Source of the DNA: Paraspadella gotoi
Taxonomy: Eukaryota > Animalia > Chaetognatha
Reading direction: 5' to 3'
DNA: 64,000 nt
Assembly (NCBI GenBank): GCA_051294375.1
Contig: CM119268.1
Coordinates: 19,751,820 to 19,815,819, forward strand
In this document: positions 1 to 63,725 of the stretch, in pieces
How positions within the stretch are numbered: the stretch's first letter is position 1
Layout of the letters: each line of letters opens with the position of its first letter
Position numbers and translations under genes: made by a program
The notes under the pieces: model-generated
Told to the model about the DNA's origin: nothing
The model's input: the letters and a program-made list of their open reading frames with translations, nothing else
Databases searched by the model: none

Positions 1-404
1 TCCTCTGCCTGCATCTAAAGGCAATCAACATCCTTTCGGATTCGGCAGGGGGCGATCCTTACGCGACAACTCTCTCAATAACCTCGTCAACAATCTCGCG
101 CGCCGTCTTTCAATTACTCGCTTTCATCACCTGACGTCGACAGCTTTTTCCGACGCCAATGGGAAGAGGGCGACCGCCGCCCCACAGGAGACTGAACCTT
201 CGCACCTCTCGCAAACGCTCTCGCGCCTTAGAGAAAAAGAAGAAGCCGAGATTGCCACCTTCGACCCAAAAACAATTGACATTGGGTCCGCAGGGTCGAA
301 ACAGCCTACGTAAGAGCAAAACATTCGCGACGCAAAAAAAAATTTGCTTATTTAGAGTCAAAAATTGACGTCAACCTCAACCTCTCGAGTGAACGCCTTT
401 CTTT

Positions 405-1046
405 ATGACGAAAAGTCCGAGGCCGCTGGAACCAGTTGTCACTACTGAAGAAGTAATGGCCAAACTCATCGTTCAGCAGGCTTCACTTCTCCTTGATGGA
501 TTCGGCCGAGATGGCCTTCGCCCATCACAGCATCTTGCTCGGCTCGAAGAAAAGATCAAAGCCGTCACCATCGACGACCTTAAGAAGGAGACGATCGTCC
601 GAGGTCTCCCCCTGGAGATCCGGCGCTCCCTCGAAGGAAGAATCGACGCCCTGACAGCAGCCGAGTTGGCCGACGAGGCCGACAAATTCTTCGACGCCGA
701 AGGGCGTCCTCGACTCGCCGCGCCAACCTCCACAATCAACGCTGCCACAATCGAGCAGCTTGTCGATGACCAAGGCACTGACAGCGATGGCGAAATGGAA
801 ATAAACGCCATCGGAGGCCATCGCCGCGATTGCAGCCGTCAGCCGACCAACAACTGGAGATCAGCGCCATCAAGTAGATCGTCGACAGGTTCTCGGCCTC
901 CAAATCAAAAACTGAAACAAATTTGCCGTTACCATCTTAAATTTGGAGATGCAGCCTTCAAATGCGAACGCGGCTGCGCCCGCAGAGGCGACCTCAAGGA
1001 GAAGGATGCCAAGATGGGAAACGGATCGGCGGGGCAGCGCAGGTGA
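405..1046 (+). CDS. gag: Gypsy-1 Gag (C-terminal part; N-terminus upstream from ~159 appears frameshifted)
   Basis: Zinc-knuckle-like CRYHLKFGDAAFKCERGC. LAxEADxF motif shared with the Gypsy-2 gag (IAKDADEFF). Confidence 0.8.
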   Translation: MTKSPRPLEPVVTTEEVMAKLIVQQASLLLDGFGRDGLRPSQHLARLEEKIKAVTIDDLKKETIVRGLPLEIRRSLEGRIDALTAAELADEADKFFDAEGRPRLAAPTSTINAATIEQLVDDQGTDSDGEMEINAIGGHRRDCSRQPTNNWRSAPSSRSSTGSRPPNQKLKQICRYHLKFGDAAFKCERGCARRGDLKEKDAKMGNGSAGQRR

Positions 1047-4000
1047 ACGCTGTGCCCCGCTCTAACGCCGATTCACCTGACTCTTTTCTCCTACATGTCG
1101 TCGACGCGAGTGATGGACGCCATTGGCTGGTGGACGGCGGAGCCTTGCTCTTGCTTATTCCACCAACGCCGGAGCAAAGAGCAGCGGGACCGACTGAAGC
1201 ACAGCTTCAGGCGGCTAACGGCAGCCCTATAGCGTGTTATGGAGTAGCTCACAGGAGGATCACACTCGGCCCTCGAATTTTTCCCTTCGACGTCCTAATC
1301 GCCGACGTCACTCAAAATATTCTCGGCGCCGACTTCTTAGCCGAATACTTCCTTGCTCCTAACCACCGCGATGGCTTGCTGCTCGACCTGAGGGATTACT
1401 CGACAATCCCCTGCGCAGTCTCCCGCGGCTCAGCACCCTCACATGTCAACTTCGTCGATCAGAAGGACGACGTATACTACCAGCTACTGGACAAGTATCC
1501 ATCGCTCTCAAAACCAAGCTTTGAACTCGGGGTGCGCCACCACATCCCAACGGAAGGCCGCCCCTGCCAAGCCCGAGCTCGATGCCTATCTCCCGAAAAA
1601 CTCGCCGTCGCCAAAGCCGAGTTAGAGAAAATGGTTCAGCTCGGCATCGCCAAAAGAGCGAAAAGTTCATGGTCCTCGCCAATCCTCTGTGTCCCAAAAT
1701 CTGATGGAGGTTGGCGAGTCTGTGGAGACTTCCGCCGCCTCAACTCGAAGACTCGAGATGATAAATACCCGGTCAAACTGCTCGCAGATTTTAATGCGCA
1801 ACTCGCCGGTAAAAAAATCTTCTCAAAGGTCGATTTGTTGAAAGGGTATCATCAGATCCCAGTAGCGGATGAGGACGTCGTCAAGACTGCCGTCATAACA
1901 CCCTTCGGCCTCTTCGTCTTCCTGCGGACCCCGTTCGGCCTTAAAAACGCCGGACAGGATTTCCAAAGGATGATGGATGAGATTCTTGGCGACATACCGC
2001 TCACATACGTTTACCTTGACGACATACTCGTCGCCAGTGAGGATGAGGAGCAGCACATCCACGACCTCGAACAGGTCTTCAAGGCACTGGCCGACAATGG
2101 ACTCGTCGTAAACCGCAAGAAGTGCGTCCTCGGGAAAGAATCTCTCGAATTTTTGGGTTATTTGGTCGATGCATCCGGCGTCAAACCTCTTCCTCAGAAG
2201 GTAGAGGCGATTCGCGCCACAAACCCTCCTACAACAGTCAAAGAGCTGCAGCGGTTCTTGGGGATGGTCAACTACTATCGCCGCTTCCTCCCCAAGGCCG
2301 CTCACCACGCCGCAGCCCTGTATGATGCCTTAGCTGGCAAGCCAAAGCAGCTTGTCTGGACGGAGGGATGCGCAACAGCTTTCAACGCCGTCAAGGAGGC
2401 GCTCGCCTGCGCCGCGTTACTCCGACATCCGCAGACCAACGCCCAACTCTCTCTTACTACCGACGCCTCAGATTTCGCTGTCGGCGCTGTCCTTGAGCAG
2501 CGCAGCAGCAATGGCTGGGAGCCATTAGCCTTCTTTTCGGCTAAACTCGACGAAGCTCAACGCCGATGGCCTCCTTTCGACCGTGAGCTGTATGGTGCAT
2601 TCCGAGCGGTGCGTCACTTCCGTCATTGGTTGGAGGGTTGAACTTTCACCCTCTACACAGACCATCAGTCACTCATACACGCCCTCCACAAGCGAACAGA
2701 GCCACAAACAACTCGGCACAACTTCCAGCTATCAGTAATCTCCGAGTTTACCACGGACATCCGACATGTCCGCGGGAAGGCCAACGTGGTGGCTGATGCG
2801 CTCTCGAGACCCAACCCTCCACCAGCTATCGCAGCTGTCGACAAACCAGTCCCTCAAGAGAAGGTCGATGACCTCGTCAGCATCATAAACGCGATCGGCC
2901 AAGAGGGAATCGACCTTGAAGAATTGGCTCGTCACCAAGCCCTTGATAGAGACTATCAGCGTCTATCTCAAGACGCCCGAACGGGCCTGAGTTTTTGCAA
3001 GGTCAAGCTCGGCGACCAAGACCTGCTCGTTGATATATCGAACGGCCCCGCTCGCCCCTTCGTACCAGAATCGTGGCGCCGTCGAGTTTTCGACGCCGTC
3101 CACGGCCTCGGCCACCCAGGCGTCGCCCGAACAAGAGAAACAATTTCCTCGAAGTTTGTTTGGCCTTCACTACGCGCCGACACAACACGCTGGGCACGAG
3201 AGTGCCTCCCTTGTCAACAGGCAAAAGTCACACGTCACGTGACGCCGCACATTGGAGAGTTTGAAGTCCCAGCTCGACGTTTTCAGCATGTGAACGTCGA
3301 CATCACCATCATGCCTAAGTCAAACGACTACGGTTATCTCTTAACCGTAGTAGATCGCTTCACACGATGGCCAGAAGCGCTACCAATGAAGGACATGTCC
3401 TCAACTACAGTGGTTGACACGCTCGTCCATGGCTGGATAGCCACGTTCGGCGTCCCTTCGGACATCACCACCGATAGAGGCGCCCAGTTCAACTCCTCCA
3501 CTTGGACCCAACTCGCTCAAACATGGGGAATCCGGCATCATCAAACCGCCGCCTATCATCCTCAAGCGAACGGACTTGTGGAGCGATTCCACCGCCGCCT
3601 CAAGGAGGCGTTAATCGCTCTAGGGACTGAAGAACCACACCAATGGTTTTGGCGCCTCCCATCAGCTTTACTTGCCATTCAAACGACAATCAAGCCAGAT
3701 GTAGGGGCCTCTCCAGCCGATCTCGTCTTCGGCGAAGGGCTCACCGTCCCTGGCGACCTGCTGCCTCCACCTCCCGGCGACAGCGAACTTCAGCAACAAC
3801 GCCGCACCCTCCGAAATAATCTCCGCGTGGAAGTTGAACGACTCCAGCCAAGGGAGACGGCAACTCACCGAACTCCCAACGTCTATCTCCCAGATTCTCT
3901 CAACGACGCCACTCACGTTTTCGTCCAGCGTTCAGGGGTCAAACCACCGCTCACAGCGCCATATCAAGGACCCTACCGCGTAATTGCACGAGACAATCTG

Positions 4001-4387
4001 AATTTCAAAATTGAAATTCCCGGACGAGGCGCCGAAAACATCGCCATATCGCGCATCAAGCCGGCGACAGTCTGGAGAGACGACGACGGCTATGAACGTG
4101 CAACTCAACCCTCTCCTCCTCCCTCTCTCGCGCCTAGGGGCCGGCGCCCGGGCCCTCGAACGCGTTTCCCGGCGCCAACATCTCGTATGACAAGAAGCAT
4201 GACAGCTCGCCTTAGTCACCCTCCTTCGACACTCTCGGCGGTTAGAGCCAGATCTGTTAGTGACGACGACGACGAGATTCCTGAACGCAATCTCGAGACA
4301 ACAGAAAATCTACCGGAAGCAGCGGCATCAGCGTCTATGACCGCGCCCATTTCCGAATCGAATGAAGATGTCGATGAAAATAAATAA
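962..4387 (+). pseudogene. pol: Gypsy-1 Pol (protease, RT, RNase H, integrase) with a single in-frame TGA at 2639-2641
   Basis: ORFs 962-2641 and 2786-4387 are in the same frame and read through as HWLEG*TFTLYTDHQSL. Motifs: LVDGGA protease, YLDD RT, TTDAS RNase H, HGLGH..CLPC integrase Zn finger, TDRG..VERFH core, PYQGPY. Confidence 0.92.
1016..1079 (+). promoter_or_regulatory. -1 programmed ribosomal frameshift signal (G GGA AAC plus H-type pseudoknot)
   Basis: Heptamer GGGAAAC 1016-1022 in the gag frame, 6-nt spacer, stem 1029-1039/1048-1060. Loop CAGGTGAA 1040-1047 is complementary to TTCACCTG 1072-1079. Confidence 0.8.
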
Positions 4388-4732
4388 TCTCAACCGACGT
4401 CAGCGCCAACACTTCCGTTTGGCGCGCCCCCTGCGTCACCGGTAGCGCCATCCACGAGCGCTCAGCGTCAGCCACGCCCACCAATCGTGAGAATCTCCAA
4501 ATCGACATCGGACAATTTTTCGTACAAAACTGTAAATAGTTTATCACGTTCTAACTATAATTCTGTTCTTCGCCACCTACTCGCGAATCTAACGTGAATT
4601 TAAATTTCATCTCATTCATTTTTATTAATACTATAATAGATATTCCGTCAAATATTAATACCGTGGTTCACCTTACCTGGCTATTGAGCCCAATCGTTTC
4701 CATAAATACTTAAATTTCCGTCTGGGGGGGAT

Positions 4733-4850
4733 GTAGGATTGAACCCGGTACCCTTCAGCCACGAGCCTTGACTCAACCAGAGTCGCCATTTAGTCATGTT
4801 GAATCTTTACTTATTCAAATCCCTTATAACAATTCTCTTTCACAAACAAA
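4733..4850 (+). mobile_element. Start of Gypsy-1 3' LTR (right boundary undetermined)
   Basis: Lies immediately after the PPT. No second copy in the window to fix the end. Confidence 0.55.
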
Positions 4851-5209
4851 TTAATCTTTTGTCTTTTCAAAAAAAGAAACACTGTTTGCTAAAGCAAATC
4901 AGCTGGTTTCATTTCACATTATTTTTATTGTTATTCCATTGAGCCTGGAAACCATTTTGAATTCTTCTAGAAGAAAAATTAACAGACTCCAAACTTGTTA
5001 TTAATTTCCTTTATTAATTATCATTAATTCCATTGTTATTGTTTAATTAATTCATTAATTATTATTGTTGTAATGATATAGATATTGCATTAGCTTGCCA
5101 GTAAAAGCTTATGGAATATCTATATGCTTTGATTATTTTATTAAGGTTTCATTTAATAAAGAACCAAACAAGTTGGTTCAGGCTGATTTTATCAGGCGCC
5201 AATTAAACT

Positions 5210-5968
5210 TTGCCACGAGCGTCAGCGCCAATACGTCATTTCCGGTTCGAGCCAAATCCATTCACGTCACTCTACAAGCACGCCACCGACAAGATGCAAT
5301 TTAGCGAAAACGGTCGTCGGCTACACCGAGGAATGTACCGGTCCCGGGATGGAATTGTAAGGGCAGTCTCGGAAGCAGACATCAAAAAGCCATCAACCGA
5401 TGCCACGACAAAAATGGAGCTCCGACCCCTTGTGGTGACCTGTTAAATGGAGCGGACCAATATGGGGGATGCTGACGTGCTGCTCGGAGGCTAGATACCC
5501 AGACACCGCCAAAGCACAAGAGAAATGCATGATCATGTGTGGCGGCACACGCGACGCCGCTTTTACTCTCAGACTAACCGGCAGAAAGACGAGGATCTCC
5601 AGCTGCGGGTTATTAGTCGACGAGACGTCCTCTCCGCATTTCTTCTATGCAGAAGGCCGGATCCAAGGCCTGAGACGGGACACTTCGGTGATGGAAGCAC
5701 TCCCGAGGCTGCGTCAAAGCTCGCGCAGGATAACCAAAGAAACATTGACTCTCTCACCAAAGCAGTGCGACATGAACTCTGTGTGACACGCGCGCGCCGA
5801 GGCGAGGGCCGCGGCGATCGAGGCACTCGCTCTCCGGCGGACATGCCATCAATCACTATGTCATCGACACTCTCGTTCGAAACGCCATGCTCGCCTCCTC
5901 CGGTATACCAACAAGGGAACAAATTCGTGGACAGTGACGGGAACACGTTTGAAAAACACAGGCCCTAA
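5210..5968 (+). pseudogene. Degraded ORF of unknown origin
   Basis: GC-rich island. ORFs 5210-5446 and 5525-5968 share one frame and are separated by two stops. No recognisable domain. Confidence 0.3.
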
Positions 5969-6300
5969 GGACCACGCTTCCGGACACGCGGAACCACGTG
6001 ACGAGCGAAAGCACTATTTACGAAGAGGTGGGCCAATTCATGGATCGCCACGCCAAGTTTCATCGGGCAAACGCAAAGTTTCAACGAGCGCCTGGGGAGA
6101 TAACCGCAGGATCACCATCATCGTTTTATCCGAAGGTTATTCGGCGACTCTCCGCTAATTGAGATATGGAGCTGGCGGTCAAATAGTGAAATATTTTTTT
6201 GTTTTTATTTTTATCTTTCCACTTGAACGATTCCAGCGAAACTCGATTTCGAGCTCAATACACACTTTCCTACCCTCACAAAAATTTCATTTCAATCATG

Positions 6301-7087
6301 TGTGGATAAGGCGCTAAATGGCAGAAGATGACTATCCATAAATCTGACTACCTCCAATCAGAACCAGATCTCAATCACAAACTTTACCCTCAAAAAATCT
6401 CACCACATTCCATCAACATAATAAAAACACCAAAAAACTTTCTATAACCCCTCTACAGACATGGAACGGGTCCTGGCTTGGAACCAGGCTTGAGGGTTTG
6501 CACACCCCCCAAGGCGGCTTACGGCCGTCCTCACTCTTCCCGCAGGGTAGGTACCGGGTGGGATTGAACCGCGGTACCTAGTGGTCATGAGCTGATGGCT
6601 TTACTCAATGAGCCACCGGGTCACAACTGAAAGATCATGCTTATAGGCGGGGTGAACCTAGGCAATGCCCGACTACATGCGCCCCCAGATTGTAACCCAC
6701 CCTGCACTGCTTCTAGTGGAGGGAGGGGAGCAATCTTCGGCAAGTCCATGGGCCTGGAATCAGAAGGTTGGAATACGCTCGACAGGATGGGCTCACCAGT
6801 GTGGATAAGGCGCTAAGTGGGCAGAAGATGACTATCCATAACTTCTTATAACCCCCTCTAGCAGACATGGAACGGGTCCTGGGCTTGGAACCAGGCTTGA
6901 GGGTTTGCCCACGCGCACAAGGCGCTTACGGCCGTCCTCACTCTTCCCGCAGGGTAGGTACCGGGTTGGGATTGAACCGGTACCTAGTGCGTCATGAGCT
7001 GATGGCTTTACTCAATGAGCCACCGGGGTCACAAACTGAAATAGTCATGCTTATAGGCGGGGTGAACCTAGGCAATGCCCGACTAAA
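6301..7087 (-). mobile_element. TRIM family A (non-autonomous miniature LTR retrotransposon with a tRNA-like segment in the LTR)
   Basis: Direct repeats 6301-6677 and 6800-7087 (minus strand TGTAGTC...ATCCACA). 122-bp internal region with PBS TGGTGAGCCC (6798-6789) and PPT TCTGGGGGCGCA (6689-6678). Imperfect TSD catg/catc. Confidence 0.85.
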
Positions 7088-7951
7088 CATCCATCAAATC
7101 ACGAGTAATTGATGTTTTTTGCTTAGGTGGGATGGACTGATGGACAGACAGACGGACAGACAGACATCAATTTTTTTGCATAATTTATCATAATTCGATG
7201 TTCTGACATGATATAAGTGAATGCCCGACAAGATTGGGGGTCAGACCGACGGACCGACAAAGTGAATTATAGATTTTCATGTTTTCATGTTCAGCTTTGC
7301 GGTAAAAAATCACTGTTCCTAAACGGATAGCACGATTTTAATAAAATTTTTGTCAAACTTAATATTCTTCAATAAACTTTAATTCACTTTTTAAATTTTT
7401 CAAAAATTTCAGTTTATATGTTTATTTTTAAAATTTAAAATAAAGTGGCAGGTATTTTTTGCACATGTTTCTATTTTTTTTCCTTTCATCAACATTTAAT
7501 TTTTGTAAAACTTTAATCTTTCTTTTCTTTTTCATTTTTCTTCTTCTCATCTAACTTCTCTACTTCATTAACACCACCGGGAAAAGAGACAGAAGAGAGA
7601 CAAAGGCTGATAGAAACGCATTGGCAGCAGAAAGGAGAGAAGGAGAGAGAGATAGAGAGAAAGAGAGAGAGAGAGAGAAACAGACATAACTATTATTTTG
7701 ACGTCGCTGTTGTAAAACTTTATTATTCTTCTAATAATAATTCTCAACGTCTTCTTTCTTTACGACCATATATTCATTTTTTTGAGCAGCTGTTATCATT
7801 AGTTAACAATAAAACTTATCGTTATTCTACAATTTAAAACCTTTAAATTACATCCGAAATATATTGGATACAAAACAAAATTATATTGACGAAACGAGAG
7901 GGAAAAAAAGAATTAAGAAAAAAAAACATGAAAACCAAAACAAGAAACTCA

Positions 7952-13078: not shown

Positions 13079-13542
13079 GAACAAAGTTTGAAGAGAGATT
13101 TAACAACGATTTTTATTTCATAGTGAAACGGACATGTTTCGACTCACATACGAGTCTTCTTCAGCGCCAATTCAATTTGTGAATTTGAAGAGAATTTTGT
13201 GCATAAAGAAAGAGAGAGAGAGAGAGCAAAGTTTCCAACACAGAGTTAGAGAGAAAGGATAGTGTTCAGTTTTTTATTATTTATTATTTCAATTTCTTTT
13301 CACAAACTATCTCTGTCCTCACCTTCACCTGTCCCTAATAAAAAACTGAACACTATCCTTTCTCTCAAACTCTGTGTTGGAAACTTTGCTCTGTCTCTCT
13401 CTCTCTCTCTTTCTTTATGCACAAAATTCTCTTCAAATTCACAAATTGAATTGGCGCTGAAGAAGACTCGTATGTGAGTCGAAACATGTCCGTTTCACTA
13501 TGAAATAAAAATCGTTGTTAAATCTCTCTTCAAACTTTGTTC
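13079..13542. mobile_element. Penelope-like fold-back remnant (~200-bp inverted repeat) with hammerhead ribozyme motifs
   Basis: 13079-13280 is the reverse complement of 13336-13542. Flanking direct repeat TTCACTTAAAATT at 13028 and 13540. Confidence 0.75.
13451..13496 (+). ncRNA. Minimal type I hammerhead ribozyme (mirror copy on minus strand ~13125-13170)
   Basis: CTGAAGA-A, stem II GACTC/GAGTC, GAAAC-ATGTC, short stem I ggcg/cgtt. Confidence 0.75.
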
Positions 13543-30442: not shown

Positions 30443-30844
30443 ATGACGTCCCTCATGAATTCGATCGTCCGCAACCTCCAAGGTTCCGTCCGCAACATCA
30501 TACCCGGCGCCGCCCGAAGCGATTACGACGACGAGGACGACCTCATGGACGAAGACGGCAGCGTCCGGGTGGGCCTGGGCTGCGGCGCCACCGCTCCGCC
30601 GCCGCTGCTTCAGATGTCGCGTCAGGACTGCATCTCCCCATGCTCGGTCAAGTTCTTCTGGGGCCGGATACCGCGGGAGACGGCTGTCCAGGCCTTGGCA
30701 GCCAAGGGACTCAAGCAGGGCCTCTTCCTGCTTCGGGAGAAGACGGATCATCAGCGGAACTTTGCTCTCTCTGTCGTGCATAAGGAGAGGGTGCATCACT
30801 ACATCGTGGAGCGCTGCAGCAATGGGTCGGTACGGGTGCCCAAG
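30443..30844 (+). CDS. SYK: Syk/ZAP-70-family tyrosine kinase, coding exon 1 (N-terminal extension plus N-SH2 start)
   Basis: FFWGRIPRETA..GLFLLRE..FALSV..VHHYIVE SH2 signature. Donor AAG|gtgagt, phase 0. Confidence 0.88.
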
Positions 30845-31126
30845 GTGAGTGGAAACGTTGGAAGTATCGATTTCTTGATACCCCGTGAGCCAAATCTGAT
30901 GATACGAGAAAAAAAATTAATTATACGCTAATAAAAAAAAATTTTAACATCAATTGAAAGAATAATCATTGACGTTTTCAAAAAGTTCAAAACATTTAAA
31001 ACCGCTATCAAAACCAGTACAAAAAACTCGGCATTGCTATGTAGAAAAAATTCTTCTTCATGGAGCAAAAAACCTTATCAAAAAGCAGGTCTAATTTTGA
31101 AGTATAACCAGTGGCCACAGATAGTT

Positions 31127-36801: not shown

Positions 36802-37057
36802 CTATGGCAACAGCCGGGTTGCCTGTGATGCCCATTGGGAAGAGTCATCTCACTGTTGGCTTTTGGGGCTTCCGACCCTCAGTGACGCCTCAAGTCACTG
36901 GCGCGGTTACCCAAGGACGGTCTCGCTTTGCCAACGCAGAGTGAAATCGTCAGGACTGTGGATGGAACACTACGCCTGGGATGGTGTGTTCCCCCTCTGA
37001 GCCAATGGATTTGGCTGAAGGATGGTGGACGTTAGGCGGTGTGAATATACCGCCACA
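36802..37057 (+). mobile_element. Solo LTR family C (TATGG...CCACA)
   Basis: Homologous to the inverted copy at 47118-47358, which has a GGAT TSD. Confidence 0.6.
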
Positions 37058-41567: not shown

Positions 41568-41773
41568 TGTGGACGAACAACTAGAACACGCAACCTTGGT
41601 CTAACCACTGACCTTATTTCAACCTTACCCTCGATTGTTTTGCTCTTCTCTTTATGGCCATACTTTGACCTTGTAAATATCCATTGTTATAGCATCTGAG
41701 CTTTTGACTGTTATCGTTATTTAACCTTGTTGAAGAATAAACCATTCTTACTCTGAAACTTGTTGCGTCCACA
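41568..41773 (+). mobile_element. Gypsy-2 3' LTR (206 bp)
   Basis: Follows the PPT. Terminal inverted repeat TGTGGACG...CGTCCACA. AATAAA at 41736-41741. Confidence 0.85.
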
Positions 41774-42659: not shown

Positions 42660-43773
42660 CAATAAAGTTTTTTTTATTAACTTTGGACATGTTTCGGCTT
42701 ACAACTCAAGCCTTCATCAGCATTTGAAATCACAAATAATTTATTTCACAAACATTGAGAGAGATAGAGAGAGGGAGAGTTCCAACAAAGAATTTAGTAA
42801 AGGAAAGTGGTCAGATGTGAGGACAGGTGAAGATGAGGACAGGGATGAAAAGGAGAGTGAATGTGAAATTGGTGAAAAGGGAGAGAGAGAGGGAGAGAGA
42901 GACACAGAGAGAGAGAGAAATAATAGTAAATAATAGGCAATGTACAACAAAGATAAATAGTATTATAAACTAGACATAATAAAGATTGAAATAAATTAAA
43001 TTAGGCTGTTTGTGCATTTTTGAAATAGTGAAATATTGAAAATGAAATGGAAAAGGATAGTTTGTGAGGGATAGTTAAGATAAAGAGGTGAGAGAAAAAT
43101 AAGTAAAGAAAGAGCTTAAAATGAGCTGGTCCCCCCCCTCCAGCCGGGCAAATGAGGGATATTACTGATGAATTTTGGTTCATAGGCCTGTCATAGGTTG
43201 AGAGAGTATTGTGGAGGAGTTAGTTAGGCTGGGATCTGGTAATGACCCACCTGGAAAAATGCCCAGTGCCACTCGAATGTCTCTCTGACCTGATAAGCCT
43301 GCCGAATGCCCTCCTCTCACCTGACGGTGAGGTGATTGCCTGTTCTGGCCTGTTTTGGTACAGGAGATACAGACTCCTCCCCCTCCTCCTGCAGCCGTCA
43401 TTTTGGGCGACGCTCGGTACGAGGAGAGATTTTGAGCTCTTTTTTTACTTATTTTTCTCTTACCTCTTTATCTTAACTATCCCTCACAAACTATCCTTTT
43501 CCATTTCATTTTCAATATTTCACTATTTCAAAAATGCACAAACAGCCTAATTTATTTTATTTCAATCTTTGTTATGTCTAGTTTATAATACTATTTATCT
43601 TTGTTGTACATTGCCTAATGTATACTATTATTTCTCTCTCTCTCTGTGTCTCTCTCTCCCTCTTTCTCTCCCTTTTCACCAATTTCACATTCACTCTCCT
43701 TTTCATCCCTGTCCTCATCTTCACCTGTCCTCACATCTGACCACTTTCCTTTACTAAATTCTTTGTTGGAACT

Positions 43774-43800
<27 letters not shown>
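42660..43800. mobile_element. Penelope-like remnant with ~370-bp inverted repeat and hammerhead motif
   Basis: ~42757-43128 is the reverse complement of ~43433-43800. Shares TGGTCAGATGTGAGGACAGG with 56310/59960. Confidence 0.65.
42682..42726 (-). ncRNA. Minimal hammerhead ribozyme
   Basis: Minus strand: CTGATGA-A GGCTT gagttgt AAGCC GAAAC ATGTC. Confidence 0.7.
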
Positions 43801-45050: not shown

Positions 45051-45893
45051 AACTGTCTCTAATTTTATATACTAAAACTAAATTTCATTGCTATTTTGTT
45101 TAAAAACGCTTTTTTGTGGAGCCATCTGGTTTATTAAGACCAAAACAGACAAAAATTTGCTATTTTGTGTAAAGCGATGCAAGTGAAGATCTAGTGGGTG
45201 CAGACAGAAGAGCAAATTTCTATAGAAAATAAAGGAAAATGCTCATAGTAGAAAAAGTAAAAGACAAATCCTCGTAGTACAAAGACGGGAAAAAAAAATA
45301 GTGCTATTGGAAAAAAAAAATTTTAAGCGATTTACAATCTTGCAGGTGCATATCAAATTTAATATGCATGTTCCTTTGTTTCTTAAAAGAGAATAAGATA
45401 TCTGGTAAATAATTTTTTAAAACTTAATCAAAAGTGCTATCTTGTCTTACTGAATGCTCCTTTGTTTAGGGCGCCCTCTAGTAAATAAAGCTTAAAAAAT
45501 AAAAAACTTAATTTGAAGAAATGAAAGAAAACCTCCTAGTAGGAGAGAGGAGATGACGAGAAGAAAAAAAAATGACGGATTAAAAAAAGAAGAAAAAAAA
45601 ATGACCGAAATTCAAGGGTAAAATAATCGCTGAAAGCGATTTACAATAAAAAAATAAATGAAATGGCAAAGAAAACCTCCTAGTAGGAGAGAGGAGATGA
45701 CGGGAAGATAAAAACATGACGGACTAAAAAAAATTGACCAAAATTCAAGGGTAAAATAAATCGCTGAAGCGATTTACAAGAAAAAATAAATAAAGAGAGG
45801 AATCAGAAAGATAGGAAAAAGATGGGGGAAAAAGGAGAGGAAGGTAAAAAGATAGATAGATAGATACTCCCCGCTTATTCCTCCCACCCCAAG

Positions 45894-46556
45894 ATCTCCC
45901 GCCAAGAGGCCGAGGATCGCATCTCCGTCTCGGGTCACGTGGACGGCCTTTTCCTAGTCCGCATATCTTTCGCCGACGGCACAGGATCCTCGACAAAGCG
46001 TTCAGCGGCGCTGACGATCTCTTTCGACGGCGGGTGTCGGCATTACCGGGTCAGCGCAGACACGAGGGATCGAGTCTCCATCGAGAAGAGTTCAAAGTTC
46101 AACTCCATCATGGAGCTCATTGATCACTACTACTACAACCAGGACGGCCTACTCCATCAGCTCACTCTGCCGTGCCTGGCGCCAGGCTGTAAACCCCCGG
46201 CCAGCAAGCGCCTGTCCACCACGTTCTCGCCGGCGTTCAATGCGGCGGCGGCGTCGAACCATTCTCCTTCGTCTTCCGATCCTCCCACGCCGCTGCCGAG
46301 GCGGCAGCCGCAGGCGCTTCCGCCGCCGCCAACGTCTTCGTGTCAGACTCCACCGCCGACGCCGCCGCAGCCCACATTCGAATCTTCGCCACCGACTCCG
46401 GGTCTAACCTCTCAGATTCGGCGCCATCGACCGTTGACGCCGCCGAGGGACGAAACCAGCGTCCTTTTGTCGCAGGCGCCGCCGCCGCCGCCGCCGAGAC
46501 CGCAATCAATGCGGGCGCCGCAGCCGACCGAGCCTGAACCAGATCTTTGCCTACAA
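45894..46556 (+). CDS. SYK: Syk-family kinase exon 4 (C-SH2 plus Pro-rich interdomain B)
   Basis: aag|ISRQEAEDRI..DGLFLVR..HYRV..KFNSIMELIDHY..DGLLHQLTLPC. 3' end inferred at CAA|gtagat (phase 0; weaker donor). Confidence 0.85.
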
Positions 46557-47117: not shown

Positions 47118-47358
47118 TTGGGCGGTATATTCACACCGCCTCACGTCCATCATCTTTCAGCCAAATCCATTGGCTCAGAGGGGAACACACCATCCCAGGC
47201 GTAGTGTTCCATCCACAGTCCTAACGGATTTCCCTTCTGCGTTGGCAAAGCGAGGACGTCCTTAGGTAACCGCGCCAGTGACTAGAGGCGTCACTGAGTG
47301 TCGGAGCCCCCAAAGCCAACAGTGAGATGCCCCATCCAAATGGGCATCACAGGCCATA
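47118..47358 (-). mobile_element. Solo LTR family C
   Basis: 4-bp TSD GGAT (47114-47117 / 47359-47362). Empty-site sequence visible in the paralogous repeat at ~46785. Confidence 0.75.
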
Positions 47359-47379: not shown

Positions 47380-47613
47380 TGAAGAGACAGTAATTATTGT
47401 TATGAGTTAGTGACAGAACTGTTCAATAAAAGCAGTCTCTGAGCTTCGGATCAGGCTATAACACCGTGTTACAGGCGGGGTAAGCGCCCCGTCCCTCTTA
47501 ACTGCTAGGCGGCCACCGGGTTAGAACCCCGGACCTTTGGGTTGGGAGGCGAATGACTTGTCTCCGGCACCAATGGCCGCTGATGAACGGTTGGTGGATT
47601 TTAGTCCACCATA
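47380..47613 (-). mobile_element. Solo LTR of TRIM family B
   Basis: Matches the LTRs at 63080-63313 and 63501-63717. TSD gttg/cttg. Confidence 0.85.
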
Positions 47614-47765
47614 CTTGTACCAATTTCATTAATAATATTGTGGTTTTTCCTTCCGTTTCGTTGTCGTTGAGGATCAGAAAGAAAATTGCAAAAAAATGGA
47701 AATTTTTATTCTAGTAATTACAATAATAATGATAAAATTAATAATGGTAATATCGCTAATAACAG

Positions 47766-48056
47766 GACATTTGGGACGAACCGCCCGACGACCTCCCGCC
47801 GGCGCTCATCGGCGTTGGAGGAGCCGCGAACGCCGCTTTCGTTGGCGACGACTCTGGAGCCAACTTCGATCCCGAGACCTACGGTCGCGTCCCCAAGGAG
47901 CTCTTTAAACTCGACCGGCGCGAGATCATCCTCCAGAACCCGATCGGGACGGGCAACTTCGGTGCCGTCCTCAAGGGCGTCTGGATTCACGAGATGGAGA
48001 ACATCCCCGTCGCGGTGAAGTCGTTGAAGTCACCTGAAGGAGGAAGCACCGATCAG
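47766..48056 (+). CDS. SYK: Syk-family kinase exon 5 (linker end plus kinase subdomains I-II)
   Basis: cag|DIWDEPP..LDRREIILQNPIGTGNFGAVLKGVW..PVAVKSLK..DQ|gtgatg. 291 bp, phase 0/0. Not in the ORF track in this frame. Confidence 0.92.
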
Positions 48057-54098: not shown

Positions 54099-55471
54099 AT
54101 ATTAGAACAAGAAAATAACAAATTAAAAAGATTGTCCTGAGAAAGTATTCACATTAAAAAGAATAAACTTAAAAAAGTAAATAGAAATGAAGGAAATTTG
54201 AGCAATGAATGGGATAAGGCTCTTAAGGTCACTTTTGAAAACAAAAGAAAGAAACTACTTGGTTTAAGGTCATCTCAAGCCTATAGAATTAAAAGACAGA
54301 GAAAAGAAGTGGCCAAAATCAGGAGAATAGATTTGTAAATTTTGTAAATTTTGTAAATTTTGTAAATTTTGTTATGCACCTTTGAAGGAGACAGAAGTCT
54401 CTTAAGATCAGTGCTTATTTAACAAATTTGAGCAAACAATGTCGGATCTGCCCACGATAATTAAGCGGTAATCAGTTAAACCAGTGGCTGCGCCAATACA
54501 TGTAAATCACTTTCAAGGGCTTAAACTGAACTGTTACTGCGTCAATAATATTTTTTTAAATTTGCATTATTTTTTAACTTTTTCATTTTTTTAACTTTTA
54601 TTATTTTTCAACTTGTATCATTTTTTTAACTTGCATACTTTTTTCAACTTGTATACTTTTTTCAACTTGCATACTTTTTTCAACTTGCATAATTATTTTA
54701 ACTTGCATAATTTATTTAGTTGCAGCATTTTTTCAACTTTCAACTATCTAGTAATCAACTATCAAGGCAGTGAGGAAGTTGAAATGTGTGTCTATTTTTT
54801 TGTTTCATATCAATTCATATATTTTTTGTTTGAATTTCCATTTAATTATGATTTACTGCAATATGCAAATTAGATTATATAGTACTTTTTCATTAATTTT
54901 TTTTGATAGTAAGGTCTGGCGAGATCATTATACTTTTAAGGTTTTTTCTTCTATATTGCTTCAATTTTTTTGTGTCTCTCTCGCATACATGTCATCATTA
55001 AAAGATATGAAAAAAATAAAACGGGTAATTTTTAAAAATATTTACAATAAAAAAATTTTAAAAAACCCTTGCTTTTTTGTTGAAGAGCAGGTGAAAGTGA
55101 AGATCTAGTGGGTGCAGATAAATTTTTTTGATGTTCCTTTGTCTTACAAAAGGCCTCCTGTTTTTTAAAGCCCTCTAGTAGAATAGGGTGAAAATACAAA
55201 GAAAATTTAATAGAACTGTTCTTTTGTTTCAGAAAAGATATACTAAAACTAAATTTCATTGCTATTTTGTTTTAAAAACGCTCTTTTGTTTGTGGAACCA
55301 TCTGGTTTATTAAGACCAAAACAGGCAAAATTTTGTGTAAAGCGATGCAAGTGAAGATCTAGTGGGTGCAGACAAAAGAGCAAATTTCTATAGAAAGTAA
55401 AGGGAAAATGCTCATAGTAGGAAAAGTAAGAGACAAATCCTCGTAGTAGGTAGCAAAAAATAAATAGATAG

Positions 55472-55748
55472 TATGGTGGACTAAAATCCACCAACCGTTC
55501 ATCAGCGGCCATTGGTGCCGGAGGCAAGTCATTCGCCTCCCAACCCAAAGGTCCGGGGTTCTAGCCCGGTGGTCGTCTGGCAGTTAAGAGGGACGGGGCG
55601 CTTAACCCGCCTGTAACCTGGTGTTACAGCCTGATCCGAAGCTCAGGGACTGCTTATATTAAATGGTTCTGTCATTAACACTTATCAATAATTACTGTCT
55701 TTTCATTTGTGAGCCCGACTTTCGAACACAACAGCAACAACAACACTT
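55472..55748 (+). mobile_element. TRIM family B: 5' LTR (55472-55705), degenerate PBS and start of internal region
   Basis: TATGGTGG...TTTTCA followed by TTTGTGAGCCCGAC and the CAA-rich internal sequence. Confidence 0.85.
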
Positions 55749-56157
55749 GACACAGACGAGCACCGCCACCTTTTACACCGTCTAATTCTCGTTATGGCTT
55801 CGACCTTCTTCTCTCACGATCGCTATCACTACTACGTTGTTTCTGTTTCATTTTATATCAATATTCTTTACTCTCTTATTTCTGTTTTTGATATCAGCCC
55901 TTCTATAGTGATGGGTTGAGCATCAATGTCATGAATGCTGAGATCGGATTCTATGAGTGGGTAATGAGGTAGTTAAGGTTGATCATTTATGAGCCGAGAC
56001 AGTATAATAACGTCAGGTTGTTTCGGACAAAATCACGCCTTCAAAATTTTCTATAAATTTTTGTTTTGAGTCACCGCAAACATTATAAAAATATTTTAAT
56101 TAATTAATTTAGAGAAAGCAAAGAATTTTGAATTTGTAACAACGATTTTTAATTAAT

Positions 56158-56204
56158 AGTTGGACATGTTTCGGCTTGTTTACTTCAAGCCTTCATTAGC
56201 ATAT
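56158..56204 (-). ncRNA. Hammerhead ribozyme motif with mutated core (duplicate at ~59803-59848)
   Basis: CTAATGA instead of CTGATGA. Stem II GGCTTG/CAAGCC, then GAAACATGTC. Confidence 0.5.
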
Positions 56205-56239
56205 GACATTCAATAATAAATTTGGTAAAAAAAGAGTGT

Positions 56240-56274
<35 letters not shown>

Positions 56275-58331
56275 GGTAAAAGTTTTTCCAACAAAGTGGT
56301 GAGACAGAATAGTGGTCAGATGTGAGGACAGGTTGAAGGTAAGGGCAGATTGAGTGAGTGGTGAAAAGAAGTGAAACTTGTTAAAGAGAGAGAGAGAGTG
56401 AAAGAGAGAGAGAGAGAAACAAAACAACAGGGATAACAAATAAATGAAGATACATTTTTGCAATGTACAACAAAGATAAAGAAGTTTAATTAATTAAATA
56501 ATTAATGATGGCAACTACGACAATGATAATACCGACGATGACAAATTGATTGATTGCTTAATTTTTTGATTGATTGATTGAATATTTGATTAATTGATTG
56601 AATAATTAATTAACTGATCAGTTCTGGCATTGTTAACACAAACTTGTTTGTTTTTTTGTCTTTTCATTATGACAAAAGAAATGATTACCCTGATGATGAT
56701 TATGATGACAACGAGGATAGCACCATCATGATAGATTGAATGATTGATTGATCAAATAAAATAAATTCATATCAGGCCTCTTAATTTTTAGGTCTTTTGT
56801 CAGGTCACTGACCAGGACAAAAGCAACAACGACGTTGGAGATGACAATGATAACACTGACATTGTTTAATTGATTGATTAATTAATTGATTAATTAATTA
56901 ATTGGTTCTTGTTTTTTTTTCATTTAAACTCATTTCCACTCGAACGATTCTTATAATTTTACAAATCTTACAATTTTTCATGGTAAAAATTTCACTTGTT
57001 ATTTGTTAACAAAAAGATTGTTTAAAATTATTCTACAAATGAATTACATGTCTAAAGAGAGTATTTTTATAAATAATAACAAATGTAAAATTTTTAAAGG
57101 AAGGAAGCGATGTGCACTCGAAACCGAAAGCGATCCGGGCTAAAAAAGTAAGGATTGCACCCGAAAACGGGAGCGGGAGGGGTCTTGGAAGCGCCGGATT
57201 GGCAGCGGCGGAAAAATCGATCGCTTCCACATCTCTGCACAAATGTATCATTTATGCTCTCTCAAAAACTCACAAACTCAAAAACTCAAACTCAAAAAAT
57301 AACATCTGTCCTTCATCCTGTCCTCACCTCTGACCACTCACTATTTGTCTCACTATTTTTCCCCCATTTGCCTATTTTTTTTTGCCTTTGGCCCCCTCTT
57401 TCATTTTCTTCCCTTCTCATTTTCTTGTTTTCTCTTTCCTCTTCCCTCTCACTATGTTTAAGAAAATCTTTAATATGCATTATAAGAAAGGATATTAACG
57501 GTAACGGAGGTTTTTATTTTAGTTTTGGTTGCCTAGCAAATTTATTAAATCGACAAATTTTGCGGAAATTTTTCCACAAAATCTGTCGATTTTCAGAAAA
57601 AACAAGTCCTGACGCTTTCCATTGGGTTAAAAGGATGCGGTTTTTTTTATCAACGTCAGTAAGTACCCATCTTTTAAAACTAATAAATGAGTTGAAAATA
57701 TTTTCTTTATCATAAATAAATGCAAGTCACAATAAGTCACAAATTAAAAGTTGTTTTTAAAAATTATTTGTGGCTAAACAAAAAGAGTTTTTTGATAATT
57801 TTGTAGGTGTTTAAAGCTTATTCTGTGGACTATATTTTCTGTTAGTTTAAGCCAATTTAAACTATTTTTGTTTAATAAATTATGATAAAAAACTAAAACT
57901 GCGACTTTTTGACTTGTCAACTTTAAAATTAATTCATAAGTGAACTATGAATGATATAAAGAAAATATTTTACTCAAGGGTGAAGAAGATAAGGAAGAAA
58001 ATAATTCCAAAATAAAAAAATTTTCTCTAATTTCCTTGGCATTCAAATTTGAAGACGAAAGTGAAAATGGACAAAAATGGACATTATTTTTTTTCCTAAA
58101 AGTTGTAAAAATGTTACTCTTATATGATTAGAAATAGCTGGAGATAGTTTTAACCAATCCGTATTTTGGCCTAATTTATATTATGGTGCAAATTAAATTA
58201 ATTTTGTTAATAGTAACTGAACAATACTGGAAAAAGTAGTTTTTTCTCTGAATGCGAGGATCGTAAGCAGAGGCTATCATATTCATTTTTTTTTTGCTGA
58301 ATTTTTNNNNNNNNNNNNNNNNNNNNNNNNN

Positions 58332-58535
58332 CTTCAGGCGACATGCCTCAACCTGGCGATGCACTTTTCCGCCCACAACACATCAGGCGACATGCCTCAA
58401 CTTGGTGACGACTTTCCACCAACAGCAACAATTCACTGAATAGAACGCAAGACTTCTCCCTACGGAGGGGGGGATGTATGGTGGACTAAAATCTACCAAC
58501 CGTTCATCAGCGGCCATTGGTGCTGGAGGCAAGTC
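58332..58535 (+). mobile_element. TRIM family B: internal region, PPT and truncated 3' LTR
   Basis: GGAGGGGGGGATG then TATGGTGGAC.. at 58477. Cut off by the element starting at 58536. Confidence 0.85.
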
Positions 58536-59884
58536 CAGAGATGTGGACGCGATCTGGAAAGCGTAAGCGAACACTGTGGAAGCGGCCGATTTTTGAAGAA
58601 CCCGAAACCGGGAGCGATAGAAAAATTAAGAATAAAGGATTGAACCCGGAAGCTATAATAACCCTGCGTGTTCGCTTCCTGGTTATTTGTTTTTAATAGT
58701 TAGAAATGAAAGGTATTTAATGTAATAAAATCTTTGCAACCCCTGCTCTTTCTTGATTGTCTTTTTAAAATTGTTTTTTCAATATTTATTTTCAACATTT
58801 AAAATTGTTTGTTCCTATAATTTTTTATTCACTTTTTCTTATTCTCTTCTTTTATTTTTTGTTTTCTTTTATTCTCTTTTCCTCTTTGGTCGAGAATCTA
58901 TGAAAAAAATTACATATTTATTTTTTTAATTATTCTTTTTAATATATTCAAATAAAATCTGAGCTGAAAAAAGATTTTTTCTATCTGAAAAAAACTGTAA
59001 TTAAGTTAAATTAAAATTTAAATTAAACTTTTTTAATTCTATAAAACTAAAAATTTTATTTCTTATATTTTTATTATTTTTCTTTAAATTTAAGTCTTTT
59101 TTTTTAAAATCCATAACGTTTTTCATGTTACAAACAAGTTTAAACCAAAGGATTGATCTGTTTTATTGGCAATATTGCATAATATTATGCTTATACATAC
59201 TTAAATCTCTAACATACTCTCTCTCTCTATCTTCTTTCTTTTTTCCCCTCTTGCACTGACAAAAAAGCAAATAAAAAAAAAATTATAAAATAAATAAATC
59301 AAAAATATTAATAAACAAACAATGCCGGATCTGCCCATGATCATTAGCGGTAATTAATTGATTAATTAATTGAAAAAAAATAAATTATTTAATAATTACA
59401 TATTAATTAATTAAAATAATAACATCGAACATTTGGGAGCTCAAATTGATTTGAACAAAGACGACAACGACGATGAATACAATGACGAAAACGACGACGA
59501 AGTCTTTGTACTTTGTGAGCCATAGTACAGTAGTGGTCAATAAGAATGACCTGATTTTACCTAATCTTGTTATGGCTGACCTTTTTCTCAGCCAATGTAA
59601 ATACTAGTTGTTATTATTATTTTTATCATTTTTACTTTTTTACTGTTTTGATAATACCAGGTTTTTTATCACAAAAAAATACGCCTCAAAATTTTCTATA
59701 AATTTTTGTTTTGAGTCACCGCAAACATTATAAAAATATTTTAATTAATTAATTTAGAGAAAGCAAAGAATTTTGAATTTGTAACAACGATTTTTAATTA
59801 ATAGTTGGACATGTTTCGGCTTGTTTACTTCAAGCCTTCATTAGCATATGACATTCAATAATAAATTTGGTAAAAAAAGAGTGT

Positions 59885-59919
<35 letters not shown>

Positions 59920-60884
59920 GGTAAAAGTTTTTCCAACAAAGTGGTGAGACAGAATAGTGGTCAGATGTGAGGACAGGTTGAAGGTAAGGGCAGATTGAGT
60001 GAGTGGTGAAAAGAAGTGAAACTTGTTAAAGAGAGAGAGAGAGTGAAGAGAGAGAGAGAGAGAAACAAAACAACAGGGATAAACAAATAATGAAGATACA
60101 TTTTTGCAATGTACAACAAAGATAAAGAAGTTTAATTAATTAAATAATTAATGATGGCAACTACGACAATGATAATACCGACGATGACAAATTGATTGAT
60201 TGCTTAATTTTTTGATTGATTGATTGAATATTTGATTAATTGATTGAATAATTAATTAACTGATCAGTTCTGGCATTGTTAACACAAAACTTGTTTGTTT
60301 TTTTGTCTTTTCATTATGACAAAAGAAATGATTACCCTGATGATGATTATGATGACAACGAGGATAGCACCATCATGATAGATTGAATGATTGATTGATC
60401 AAATAAAATAAATTCATATCAGGCCTCTTAATTTTTAGGTCTTTTGTCAGGTCACTGACCAGGACAAAAGCAACAACGACGTTGGAGATGACAATGATAA
60501 CACTGACATTGTTTAATTGATTGATTAATTAATTGATTAATTAATTAATTGGTTCTTGTTTTTTTTTTCATTTAAACTCATTTCCACTCGAACGATTCTT
60601 ATAATTTTACAAATCTTACAATTTTTCATGGTAAAAATTTCACTTGTTATTTGTTAACAAAAAGATTGTTTAAAATTATTCTACAAATGAATTACATGTC
60701 TAAAGAGAGTATTTTATAAATAATAACAAATGTAAAATTTTTAAAGGAAGGAAGCGATGTGCACTCGAAACCGAAAGCGATCCGGGCTAAAAAAGTAAGG
60801 ATTGCACCCGAAAACGGGAGCGGGAGGGGTCTTGGAAGCGCCGGATTGGCAGCGGCGGAAAAATCGATCGCTTCCACATCTCTG
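58536..60884. mobile_element. Non-autonomous TIR DNA transposon (hAT-like termini)
   Basis: CAGAGATGTGGA(c/a)GCGATC ... GATCGCTTCCACATCTCTG terminal inverted repeats with CCGAAA/CGGGAGCG sub-terminal motifs. No TSD found. Confidence 0.5.
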
Positions 60885-61950: not shown

Positions 61951-62106
61951 TTTAACTTGCATCATTTTTTTCAAATTGCATCATTTTTTCACGTAATTAA
62001 TTAACTAATTAAAGTATTCATAAGTATGCATAAATAATAAAAATTCAAATCAACTTGACTTTGGTTTTTTCCATACAAACTCCTCGATTCCATGGAAAAT
62101 TTATAT

Positions 62107-62351
62107 TGCGCTCTAAGGCGATAAGTGGGCTGAAGATGACTATCCGCAACTTCTTTAACCCCTCCAGCAGCCATGGAACGAGTCCTGGGTTTGAAGGTTT
62201 TCCACGAACCGAAGTTGGTTTACGGCCATCCGCACGTTAGGTACTGGGTTGGGATTGAACCCACTTTAATCAATGAGCCACCGGGTCAGTGGGTCACGAC
62301 TGAAGGTGTAATGCTTATAGGCAGGGTGAACTTATGCTGTGCCCGACTACA
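62107..62351 (-). mobile_element. Diverged solo LTR of TRIM family A
   Basis: GAAGATGACTATCC..GGGATTGAACC..ATGAGCCACCGGGTCA..GCCCGACTACA, inserted in an H1 satellite unit. Confidence 0.75.
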
Positions 62352-63079: not shown

Positions 63080-63717
63080 TGAAGAGACAGTAATTATTGT
63101 TAAGAGTTAGTGATAGAACCGTTCAATATAAGCAGTCGCTGAGCTTCGGATCAGGCTGTAACACCATGTTACAGGCGGGTTAAGCGCCCCGTCCCTCTTA
63201 ACTGCCAGACGACCACCGGGCTAGAACCCCGGACCTTTGGGTTGGGAGGCGAATGACTTGCCTCCGGCACCAATGGCCACTGATGAACGGTTGGTGGATT
63301 TTAGTCCACCATACATCCCCCCTCCTGTAGGGAGAAGTCTGTTGCGTCTCTTCTGTGAATTGTTGTTGTTGGTGGAAAGTTCGTCACCAAGTTGAGGCAT
63401 GTCGCCTGATGTGTTGTGGGCGGAAAGTACATCGCCAGGTTGAGGCATGTCGCCTGAAAGTGTTGTTGTTGCTGTTGTGTTCGGAAGTCGGGCTCACCAA
63501 TGAAGAGACGGTAATTATTGTTATGAGTTAGTGATAGAACCGTTCATATAAGCAGTCCCTGAGCTTCGGATCAGGCTGTAACACCATGTTACAGGCGGGT
63601 TAAGCGCCCCGTCCCTCTTAACTGCCAGACGACCACCGGGCTAGAACCCCGGACCTTTGGGTTGGGAGGCGAATGACTTGCCGCTGATGAACGGTTGGTG
63701 GATTTTAGTCCACCATA
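63080..63717 (-). mobile_element. Complete TRIM family B (638 bp)
   Basis: LTRs 63717-63501 and 63313-63080. PBS TGGTGAGCCCGAC 63499-63487. PPT GGAGGGGGGATG 63325-63314. Perfect 4-bp TSD GTTA (63076-63079 / 63718-63721). Confidence 0.92.
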
Positions 63718-63725
63718 GTTACAAG

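What the first reader, a model, noticed from the sequence alone, without database searches (positions are those of the whole stretch)
6301..7087. Second, unrelated tRNA-LTR TRIM (family A) with a tRNA-Met-like segment and the same PBS
Seen: two LTRs (TGTAGTC...ATCCACA on minus) around only 122 bp containing PBS TGGTGAGCCC and PPT TCTGGGGGCGCA. Each LTR contains GACCCGGTGGCTCATTGAGTAAAGCCATCAG-CTCATGA..GGTTCAATCCC, i.e. A box, CAT anticodon-like loop and B box. A solo LTR sits at 62107. The LTR has no visible similarity to family B outside this architecture. Inference: independent captures of different tRNAs by TRIMs that use the same primer, pointing to a recurring strategy in this genome. It would be mis-annotated as a tandem SINE.
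Basis: partly seen in the sequence, partly recalled or inferred. Interest (0 to 1): 0.8.

Follow-up and report, generated by a model that had tools for sequence, protein, structure and literature searches.

The report
Helenus-type mini-retrotransposon with tRNA promoter boxes
A 787-base, gene-less jumping element carries tRNA-gene promoter boxes in both of its end repeats and is likely copied by a Gypsy retrotransposon's enzymes, which makes it a new family of the "Helenus" elements described in 2024 rather than a new kind of thing.

Summary
The anatomy is real. On the minus strand lie a 5' LTR (7087-6800), 122 bp with PBS and PPT, and a 3' LTR (6677-6301); the LTRs match at 272 of 278 aligned bases. 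Each has box A and box B at tRNA spacing (1 and 0 of 3000 shuffles). Public contigs show other, diverged copies with the same junctions and unrelated flanks, so it is not a tandem SINE. Three of four bounded TRIM copies in the window have 4-bp target duplications (two exact; this copy 3 of 4). This matches Helenus (Kojima 2024, PMC10886601): TRIMs with tRNA-like LTRs, 4-bp TSDs in animals, thought to be Gypsy-mobilised. Searched motifs found no matching published family. Not supported: "tRNA-Met" (no cloverleaf, unpaired anticodon stem, no ARAGORN or Rfam hit) and "independent captures" (A and B cores are colinear and share an unusual PBS). The solo LTR ends at 62114, not 62107, and has lost its A-B spacing. 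Pol III transcription, primer identity (tRNA-Trp-like), helper and host phylum remain untested or unresolved. This scan noted Helenus-like TRIMs before in other genomes. New member of a known kind.

The parts
6800..7087 (-). 5' LTR of family A (288 bp; starts TTTAGTC, ends TATCCACA)
   Evidence: 23 contigs of run X9 turn loose at 6800 with agreement 0.45
7051..7055 (-). TATAA, 33 nt upstream of box A (also 6641-6645 and in the solo LTR); could serve Pol II or Pol III
   Evidence: function not tested
7011..7022 (-). Box A-like TGGCTCATTGAG in the 5' LTR (TRGCY present, YGG absent)
6992..6998 (-). CTCATGA in the anticodon-loop position; the flanking stem does not pair
6968..6978 (-). Box B GGTTCAATCCC in the 5' LTR, in the loop of a 10-bp hairpin
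6678..6799 (-). Internal region, 122 bp, non-coding
   Evidence: longest stop-free stretch in the whole element 78 codons
6789..6798 (-). Primer-binding site TGGTGAGCCC, one base after the LTR end; 9 of 10 identical to the tRNA-Trp PBS printed in PMC10886601 Fig. S2
6678..6689 (-). PPT-like TCTGGGGGCGCA directly before the 3' LTR
6301..6677 (-). 3' LTR (377 bp with the extra stretch; TGTAGTC...TATCCACA)
   Evidence: 91 contigs of run X2 turn loose at 6677 with agreement 0.38
6604..6615 (-). Box A-like motif in the 3' LTR
6560..6570 (-). Box B in the 3' LTR
6343..6437 (-). About 95 extra bases in the 3' LTR only, resembling a degraded copy of the host repeat just downstream (assembly noise or a local duplication)
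   Evidence: 0 of 1000 shuffles score as high
7088..7091 (-). Left target-site copy, GATG
6297..6300 (-). Right target-site copy, CATG (3 of 4 match)
6173..7273 (.). Dispersed host repeat split by the insertion (6173-6297 and 7088-7273); uninterrupted copies at about 11.1, 20.0, 50.3, 51.5 and 53.4 kb
62114..62351 (-). Solo LTR of family A, 86% identical, ends CCTTA, exact 4-bp duplication GAGC, 25 nt lost between box A and box B; sits in the same host repeat family
63080..63717 (-). Family B full element (TATGG...TTCA LTRs, PBS TGGTGAGCCCGAC at 63499, exact 4-bp duplication TAAC); further copies or parts at 47380-47614, 55471-55748, 58333-58535
1..5276 (+). Neighbouring Gypsy-type element (RT, RNase H, integrase; 3' LTR about 4732-5276), a candidate helper lineage only

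Best explanation
[quoted passage not shown] Shown: LTR-PBS-PPT-LTR anatomy, fixed ends with unrelated flanks, many diverged copies, 4-bp target duplications, no coding capacity, no functional tRNA fold. Inferred steps: (1) Pol III starts near the tRNA-like core of the 5' LTR and reads through PBS, PPT and 3' LTR, since neither the 5' LTR nor the internal part has a run of four T (about 55% likely; the TATAA upstream could instead drive Pol II). (2) A host tRNA ending ...GGGCTCA-CCA, most likely tRNA-Trp (about 65%), primes minus-strand synthesis, and the PPT primes the plus strand. (3) A Gypsy integrase inserts the DNA with a 4-bp duplication (about 80%). (4) LTR-LTR recombination leaves solo LTRs such as 62114-62351. 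Families A and B are more likely old sister lineages using one primer than two separate tRNA captures (about 55 to 45).
For: LTR pair 272/278 identical around 122 bp with PBS and PPT. Box A-box B at 44-45 nt spacing, 1/3000 and 0/3000 shuffles. Of the 32 contig pieces listed (32,002 in all, list cut by the tool), 4 bridge the LTR-PBS junction with 12-22 differences and 3 bridge the PPT-LTR junction with 16-18 differences, so other copies share the layout; they come from runs X1, X2, X5, X9. Flanks scatter exactly at the LTR ends: 91 contigs at 6677 (agreement 0.38), 23 at 6800 (0.45). Summed depth over the internal part is 312,282 in X1 against 151 on a nearby stretch; the tool warns this is no copy number. 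Four-base flanks: GAGC/GAGC, TAAC/TAAC, GATG/CATG; 5-base flanks match in none of 4 copies. Uninterrupted host-repeat copies place the duplications in register. PMC10886601 defines Helenus by these traits and links animal families to Gypsy through PBS and 4-bp TSD. Family B's PBS matches the printed tRNA-Trp PBS at 12 of 13 bases. The PPT-LTR junction resembles that of the neighbouring Gypsy (15 of 17 columns, 7 of 300 shuffles as high).
Against: Box A lacks the YGG that most Helenus keep (TTGAGT in both LTRs). ARAGORN finds 0 tRNA genes and Rfam's tRNA model gives no hit up to E 10, so tRNA origin rests on the boxes and their spacing. The solo LTR has only 19 nt from box A start to box B start; if such copies moved, Pol III is dispensable. 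This copy's TSD is imperfect, and the family B solo fits 3 bp (CAA/CAA) or a mismatched 4 bp. The primer's identity could not be fixed: prokaryote-type tRNAs with the family B end are mostly Lys (81 of 92 called, among 121 loci). No helper with the same PBS was found.
Confidence: 0.85

Rival explanations
1. Ordinary Pol II TRIM: the tRNA-like segment is a passive relic of an old SINE insertion and the TATAA at LTR position 33 drives transcription. The class label (Helenus by structure) stays, the Pol III mechanism falls.
For: TATAA is kept in both LTRs and the solo LTR. Box A lacks YGG. The solo LTR has lost the A-B spacing yet has a clean 4-bp duplication. Helenus Pol III activity has never been tested (PMC10886601 section 4.1).
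Against: Box B is a perfect consensus and is unchanged in the solo LTR that is 14% diverged overall; spacing in the full element is that of a tRNA gene. The solo's deletion may have followed insertion.
Confidence: 0.35
2. One reading: families A and B each captured a different tRNA independently (A from tRNA-Met) and converged on one primer.
For: Whole-LTR local alignment of A and B is no better than chance (42 of 300 shuffles) and internal parts share only the PBS. Their LTR ends differ (TG...CA against TA...CA). A has CTCATGA at the loop position.
Against: The cores align in register beyond the boxes (0 of 2000 shuffles, though the cores were picked by their boxes and any two tRNA-derived pieces may do this). 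Both share a PBS that none of the published Helenus internal sequences holds, which suits common descent or a common helper. The Met label has no structural support.
Confidence: 0.3
3. Two tRNA-derived SINEs in tandem with a chance spacer.
For: A/B boxes in each unit; TG start damaged and TSD imperfect at this locus.
Against: Box A starts 62-65 nt inside the unit, not at its start; no A-rich or simple-repeat tail; TG...CA ends; PBS and PPT at the canonical places; the same junctions recur in diverged copies; family B repeats the layout.
Confidence: 0.03

Closest known systems
Helenus (TRIMp3 group), animal families; Kojima 2024, PMC10886601 (text parts 1-5 of 6 read; supplement parts 10 and 11 read, rest searched by motif)
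   Same: Gene-less TRIM under 1 kb (about 700 bp without the extra stretch; published range 311-1263); tRNA-like segment in each LTR with TRGCY and GGTTC; not a working tRNA; PBS for a tRNA 3' end and PPT; 4-bp TSD; solo LTRs; several families in one genome; tRNA-like part not the primer (6 nt complement only).
   Different: None of the searched family A or B terminal or PBS motifs marks a published family. Box A lacks YGG. LTR is long for an animal family (288 bp; published 104-323). The core lies in the 5' half of the LTR, whereas in the bivalve and wasp LTRs seen it lies nearer the 3' end; Helenus-1_MLe also has it at the 5' end.
Helenus-2_SyJa / Helenus-2_SyUm and Gypsy-32_NVi (tRNA-Trp-primed; PMC10886601 Fig. 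S2)
   Same: PBS TGGTGACCCCGAC matches family A at 9 of 10 and family B at 12 of 13 bases.
   Different: Position 7 is G here; internal parts there are about 485 bp; no further likeness was tested.
Cassandra and Ajax (TRIMs with 5S rRNA-derived LTR segments; as described in PMC10886601)
   Same: Same idea: a Pol III gene piece inside TRIM LTRs; Cassandra's Pol III transcription is the only validated case.
   Different: 5S (type 1) promoter, not tRNA-type; no 5S hit here.
tRNA-derived SINEs (SINE2)
   Same: Internal A and B boxes; proposed source of the Helenus core.
   Different: No LINE-like tail, fixed LTR ends, PBS and PPT, short fixed TSD.

Membership tests
Helenus (TRIM with tRNA-derived LTR) | Two LTRs around a short non-coding part, total under about 1000 bp | tested here: met
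   787 bp with the extra stretch; no stop-free stretch over 78 codons
Helenus (TRIM with tRNA-derived LTR) | PBS right after the 5' LTR, complementary to a tRNA 3' end | tested here: met
   TGG-started PBS one base after the LTR; 9/10 to the printed Trp PBS; host tRNA set not available, so isotype open
Helenus (TRIM with tRNA-derived LTR) | PPT directly before the 3' LTR | tested here: met
   G-run ending 4 nt before TGTAG
Helenus (TRIM with tRNA-derived LTR) | Box A TRGCY and box B GGTTC at tRNA spacing in the LTRs | tested here: met
   Both LTRs; 1/3000 and 0/3000 shuffles; lost in the solo LTR
Helenus (TRIM with tRNA-derived LTR) | YGG in box A (present in most, not all, families per the paper, so typical rather than required) | tested here: not met
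   TTGAGT in both LTRs, TTGATT in the solo; family B has TTGGT
Helenus (TRIM with tRNA-derived LTR) | Sequence similarity of the core to a tRNA or SINE2 (the paper's Censor criterion) | tested here: inconclusive
   No ARAGORN or Rfam tRNA hit; D-arm, spacing and T-arm positions fit tRNA numbering; no host tRNA or Repbase set on hand
Helenus (TRIM with tRNA-derived LTR) | 4-bp TSD (animal families) | tested here: met
   2 of 4 bounded copies exact, 1 of 4 with one mismatch, 1 of 4 ambiguous (3 bp); 0 of 4 fit 5 bp. Small sample, includes family B
Helenus (TRIM with tRNA-derived LTR) | Dispersed multi-copy family with solo LTRs | tested here: met
TRIMp3 (Pol III-driven TRIM) | Transcription by RNA polymerase III from the LTR | not testable with these tools
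   Only assembled contigs were available
Animal Helenus | Gypsy partner with the same PBS | tested here: inconclusive
   Neither Gypsy in the window has its 5' LTR and PBS in view; PPT-LTR junction likeness is weak (7 of 300 shuffles)
SINE2 | tRNA head at the 5' end, LINE-like or simple-repeat tail, variable TSD | tested here: not met
Functional tRNA-Met gene | Cloverleaf with paired acceptor and anticodon stems | tested here: not met

The most novel reading that the evidence does not exclude
A new animal lineage of Helenus, outside the six phyla on record, in which two high-copy families share one primer and one Gypsy helper, and the helper lineage is the one next door: its PPT-LTR junction resembles both TRIMs, and the first 30 bases of its LTR hold, on the opposite strand, a 16-of-17 match to family A's box B arm. 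That would be the first animal TRIMp3-Gypsy pair linked by sequence beyond the PBS and a ready system for testing Pol III-driven LTR retrotransposition.
Probability: 0.12. Interest if true: 0.55.

Novelty: new member of a known kind. Interest (0 to 1): 0.28.

Why it matters
Helenus was defined from sequence alone in 2024, and whether its tRNA boxes really drive Pol III transcription is open. A high-copy family with near-identical LTRs, a sister family on the same primer and natural box-spacing deletions would be usable material for that test. Practically, such copies are easily mislabelled as SINEs or tRNA pseudogenes. The class itself is not new.

Tried and rejected
No whole genome is held for this window, so no genome-wide TSD count, host tRNA set or helper search was possible. 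No RNA holder was listed on record (X9 is only guessed to be RNA), so expression is untested. No contig of the four runs covered bin 6349-6409 of the extra stretch; this blank proves nothing by itself. Exact family A motifs gave 0 hits in metagenome contigs and viral contigs. Laying contigs on the Gypsy 3' LTR did not reveal its PBS; a scan for Gypsy relatives gave 1 locus at 36% identity, not used. Host placement failed: two word-indexed searches found nothing; the SH2 exon's best hit (85%) is unnamed and named hits among the 10 looked up (of 150 listed) are SYK-like kinases at 35-42%; Gypsy RT relatives at 65-70% are unnamed. Self-priming rejected: only 6 nt of the LTR complement the PBS. 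Half-tRNA-iMet priming considered because fungal Helenus PBSs share TGAGCCCA; rejected as the site starts with TGG and family B continues GAC. TSDs of 5 bp fit none of 4 copies. All Rfam hits are below their gathering scores.

Full report
Observation. Read on the minus strand, the locus is a 5' LTR (7087-6800), a 122-bp internal part and a 3' LTR (6677-6301). The LTRs match at 272 of 278 aligned bases, with 13 indels of one or two bases and about 95 extra bases in the 3' LTR. That extra stretch resembles the host repeat lying just downstream (0 of 1000 shuffles as high), so it is assembly noise or a local duplication. The internal part opens with C-TGGTGAGCCC and closes with TCTGGGGGCGCA. The exact 10-mer occurs twice in the window, here and in family B. 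The element has no stop-free stretch over 78 codons.

The tRNA-like segment. Each LTR holds TGGCT followed 44-45 nt later by GGTTCAATCCC. This pair appears in 1 of 3000 and 0 of 3000 dinucleotide shuffles and nowhere else in the window. In tRNA numbering CTCATGA falls on the anticodon loop, but the flanking stem does not pair, the predicted folds are not cloverleaves, ARAGORN finds 0 genes and Rfam's tRNA model does not hit at E up to 10. It is a promoter-shaped relic; the Met label is a resemblance I could not test without the host's tRNAs. Box A reads TTGAGT where most Helenus have YGG.

It is a family, not a one-off. Contigs from runs X1, X2, X5 and X9 were laid on 5800-7600. Among the 32 pieces listed (of 32,002), 4 bridge the LTR-PBS junction with 12-22 differences and 3 bridge the PPT-LTR junction with 16-18, so other copies share the layout. 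Flanks scatter exactly at the LTR ends: 91 contigs at 6677 (agreement 0.38) and 23 at 6800 (0.45). Summed depth on the internal part is about 2000 times that of a nearby stretch in X1, which the tool warns is not a copy number.

Target sites. The element splits a dispersed host repeat whose uninterrupted copies give the empty site. Four-base flanks are GATG/CATG here, GAGC/GAGC at the solo LTR and TAAC/TAAC at the full family B element; the family B solo fits CAA/CAA or a mismatched 4-mer; 5-base flanks fit none of the 4. It is 86% identical to the 5' LTR, lacks the terminal TCCACA and has lost 25 nt between the boxes.

Family B. It has TATGG...TTCA LTRs and PBS TGGTGAGCCCGAC. Whole-LTR local alignment with A is at chance level (42 of 300 shuffles) and the internal parts share only the PBS. 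A global alignment of the hand-picked cores is colinear beyond the boxes (0 of 2000 shuffles), but that test is biased by how the cores were chosen. Independent capture is neither shown nor excluded.

Primer and helper. Against the tRNA-Trp PBS printed in Fig. S2 of PMC10886601, A matches 9 of 10 and B 12 of 13 bases, with the same deviation; a host Trp tRNA with that variant is the simplest reading, but it is inference. Prokaryote-type tRNAs with this end are mostly Lys, so the end is a real tRNA end but does not name the isotype. Two Gypsy-type elements lie in the window (RT, RNase H, integrase order). The one at 1-5276 has a 3' LTR from about 4732, laid at about twice the depth of its flanks. 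Its PPT-LTR junction resembles A (15 of 17 columns, 7 of 300 shuffles) and B (11 of 11, 12 of 300), and its LTR start carries an antisense 16-of-17 match to A's box B arm (0 of 300; one of 12 comparisons). It lacks a matching box A at tRNA spacing. Its PBS is outside the window, so the helper is not identified.

Mechanism. Shown: anatomy, fixed ends, dispersal, short duplications, no coding or tRNA function. Inferred: Pol III transcription from the 5' LTR (no run of four T in the 5' LTR or internal part; weak evidence, and TATAA 33 nt upstream allows Pol II), tRNA priming at the PBS, plus-strand priming at the PPT, Gypsy integration, and solo LTRs by recombination.

Known systems. PMC10886601 (text parts 1-5 of 6; supplement parts 10 and 11; motif searches) defines Helenus as TRIMs with tRNA-derived LTR sequence, TRGCY/YGG and GGTTC boxes, non-functional tRNA, 4-bp TSD and Gypsy-like PBS in animals, found in six animal phyla, often several families per genome, and leaves Pol III function untested. 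Family A meets these features except YGG; similarity to a tRNA by alignment is inconclusive. PMC13570524 (passages only) cites Helenus without new tests. Three paper searches showed no later study of the group; subscription journals and Repbase were not searched. The host is an organism with a SYK-like tandem-SH2 kinase gene and long repeat-filled introns, probably an animal; its phylum was not resolved, so a new phylum record is possible but unproven. Earlier notes of this scan report Helenus-like TRIMs in other genomes; none exist for this genome. They agree with my reading and are not evidence for it.

Verdict. Observation confirmed with small corrections; interpretation partly supported; a new family of a published kind; interest 0.28.

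Noticed in passing
window 4732-4762 (+): The start of the Gypsy 3' LTR reads, on the opposite strand, as a 16-of-17 match to family A's box B arm; contigs of related elements share this PPT-LTR start. Chance or a real link is undecided.
   Followed up: partly
window 6173-7273 and 62040-62411: Both family A insertions sit in the same host repeat family, which covers about 6% of the window. Target preference, survival bias or chance (two cases, noticed after the fact).
   Followed up: partly
window 63080-63717, 47380-47614, 55471-55748, 58333-58535: Family B LTRs begin TA rather than TG at the outer junction, with TG left between PPT and LTR; the full copy sits beside a long hairpin repeat (63710-63822).
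   Followed up: partly
window 41568-41773 (+): 3' LTR of a second, degraded Gypsy, with an 8-bp terminal inverted repeat and ending TCCACA like family A; no 5' LTR found in the window.
   Followed up: partly
window 1-5276 (+): Gypsy element with long open RT/RNase H and integrase frames separated by one stop at about 2640; a small high-copy repeat sits inside its LTR at about 5076-5178.
   Followed up: partly
window 30443-30850, 45864-46220, 47856-48047 (+): Exons of a divergent SYK-like kinase (two SH2 domains and a kinase start) with a 15-kb interval full of retroelement remains; at most 42% identical to the named proteins looked up.
   Followed up: partly
window 56041-61011: Near-exact direct duplication with a period of about 3.65 kb around an N gap (58307-58331); may be an assembly artefact.
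   Followed up: no
window 42757-43794 and 13079-13542: Long inverted repeats (366 bp at 97%, 148 bp at 100%), MITE-like.
   Followed up: no
window 36821-37054 and 47121-47354: A further 236-bp repeat pair at 92% identity in opposite orientation, one abutting the family B solo LTR; not classified.
   Followed up: no
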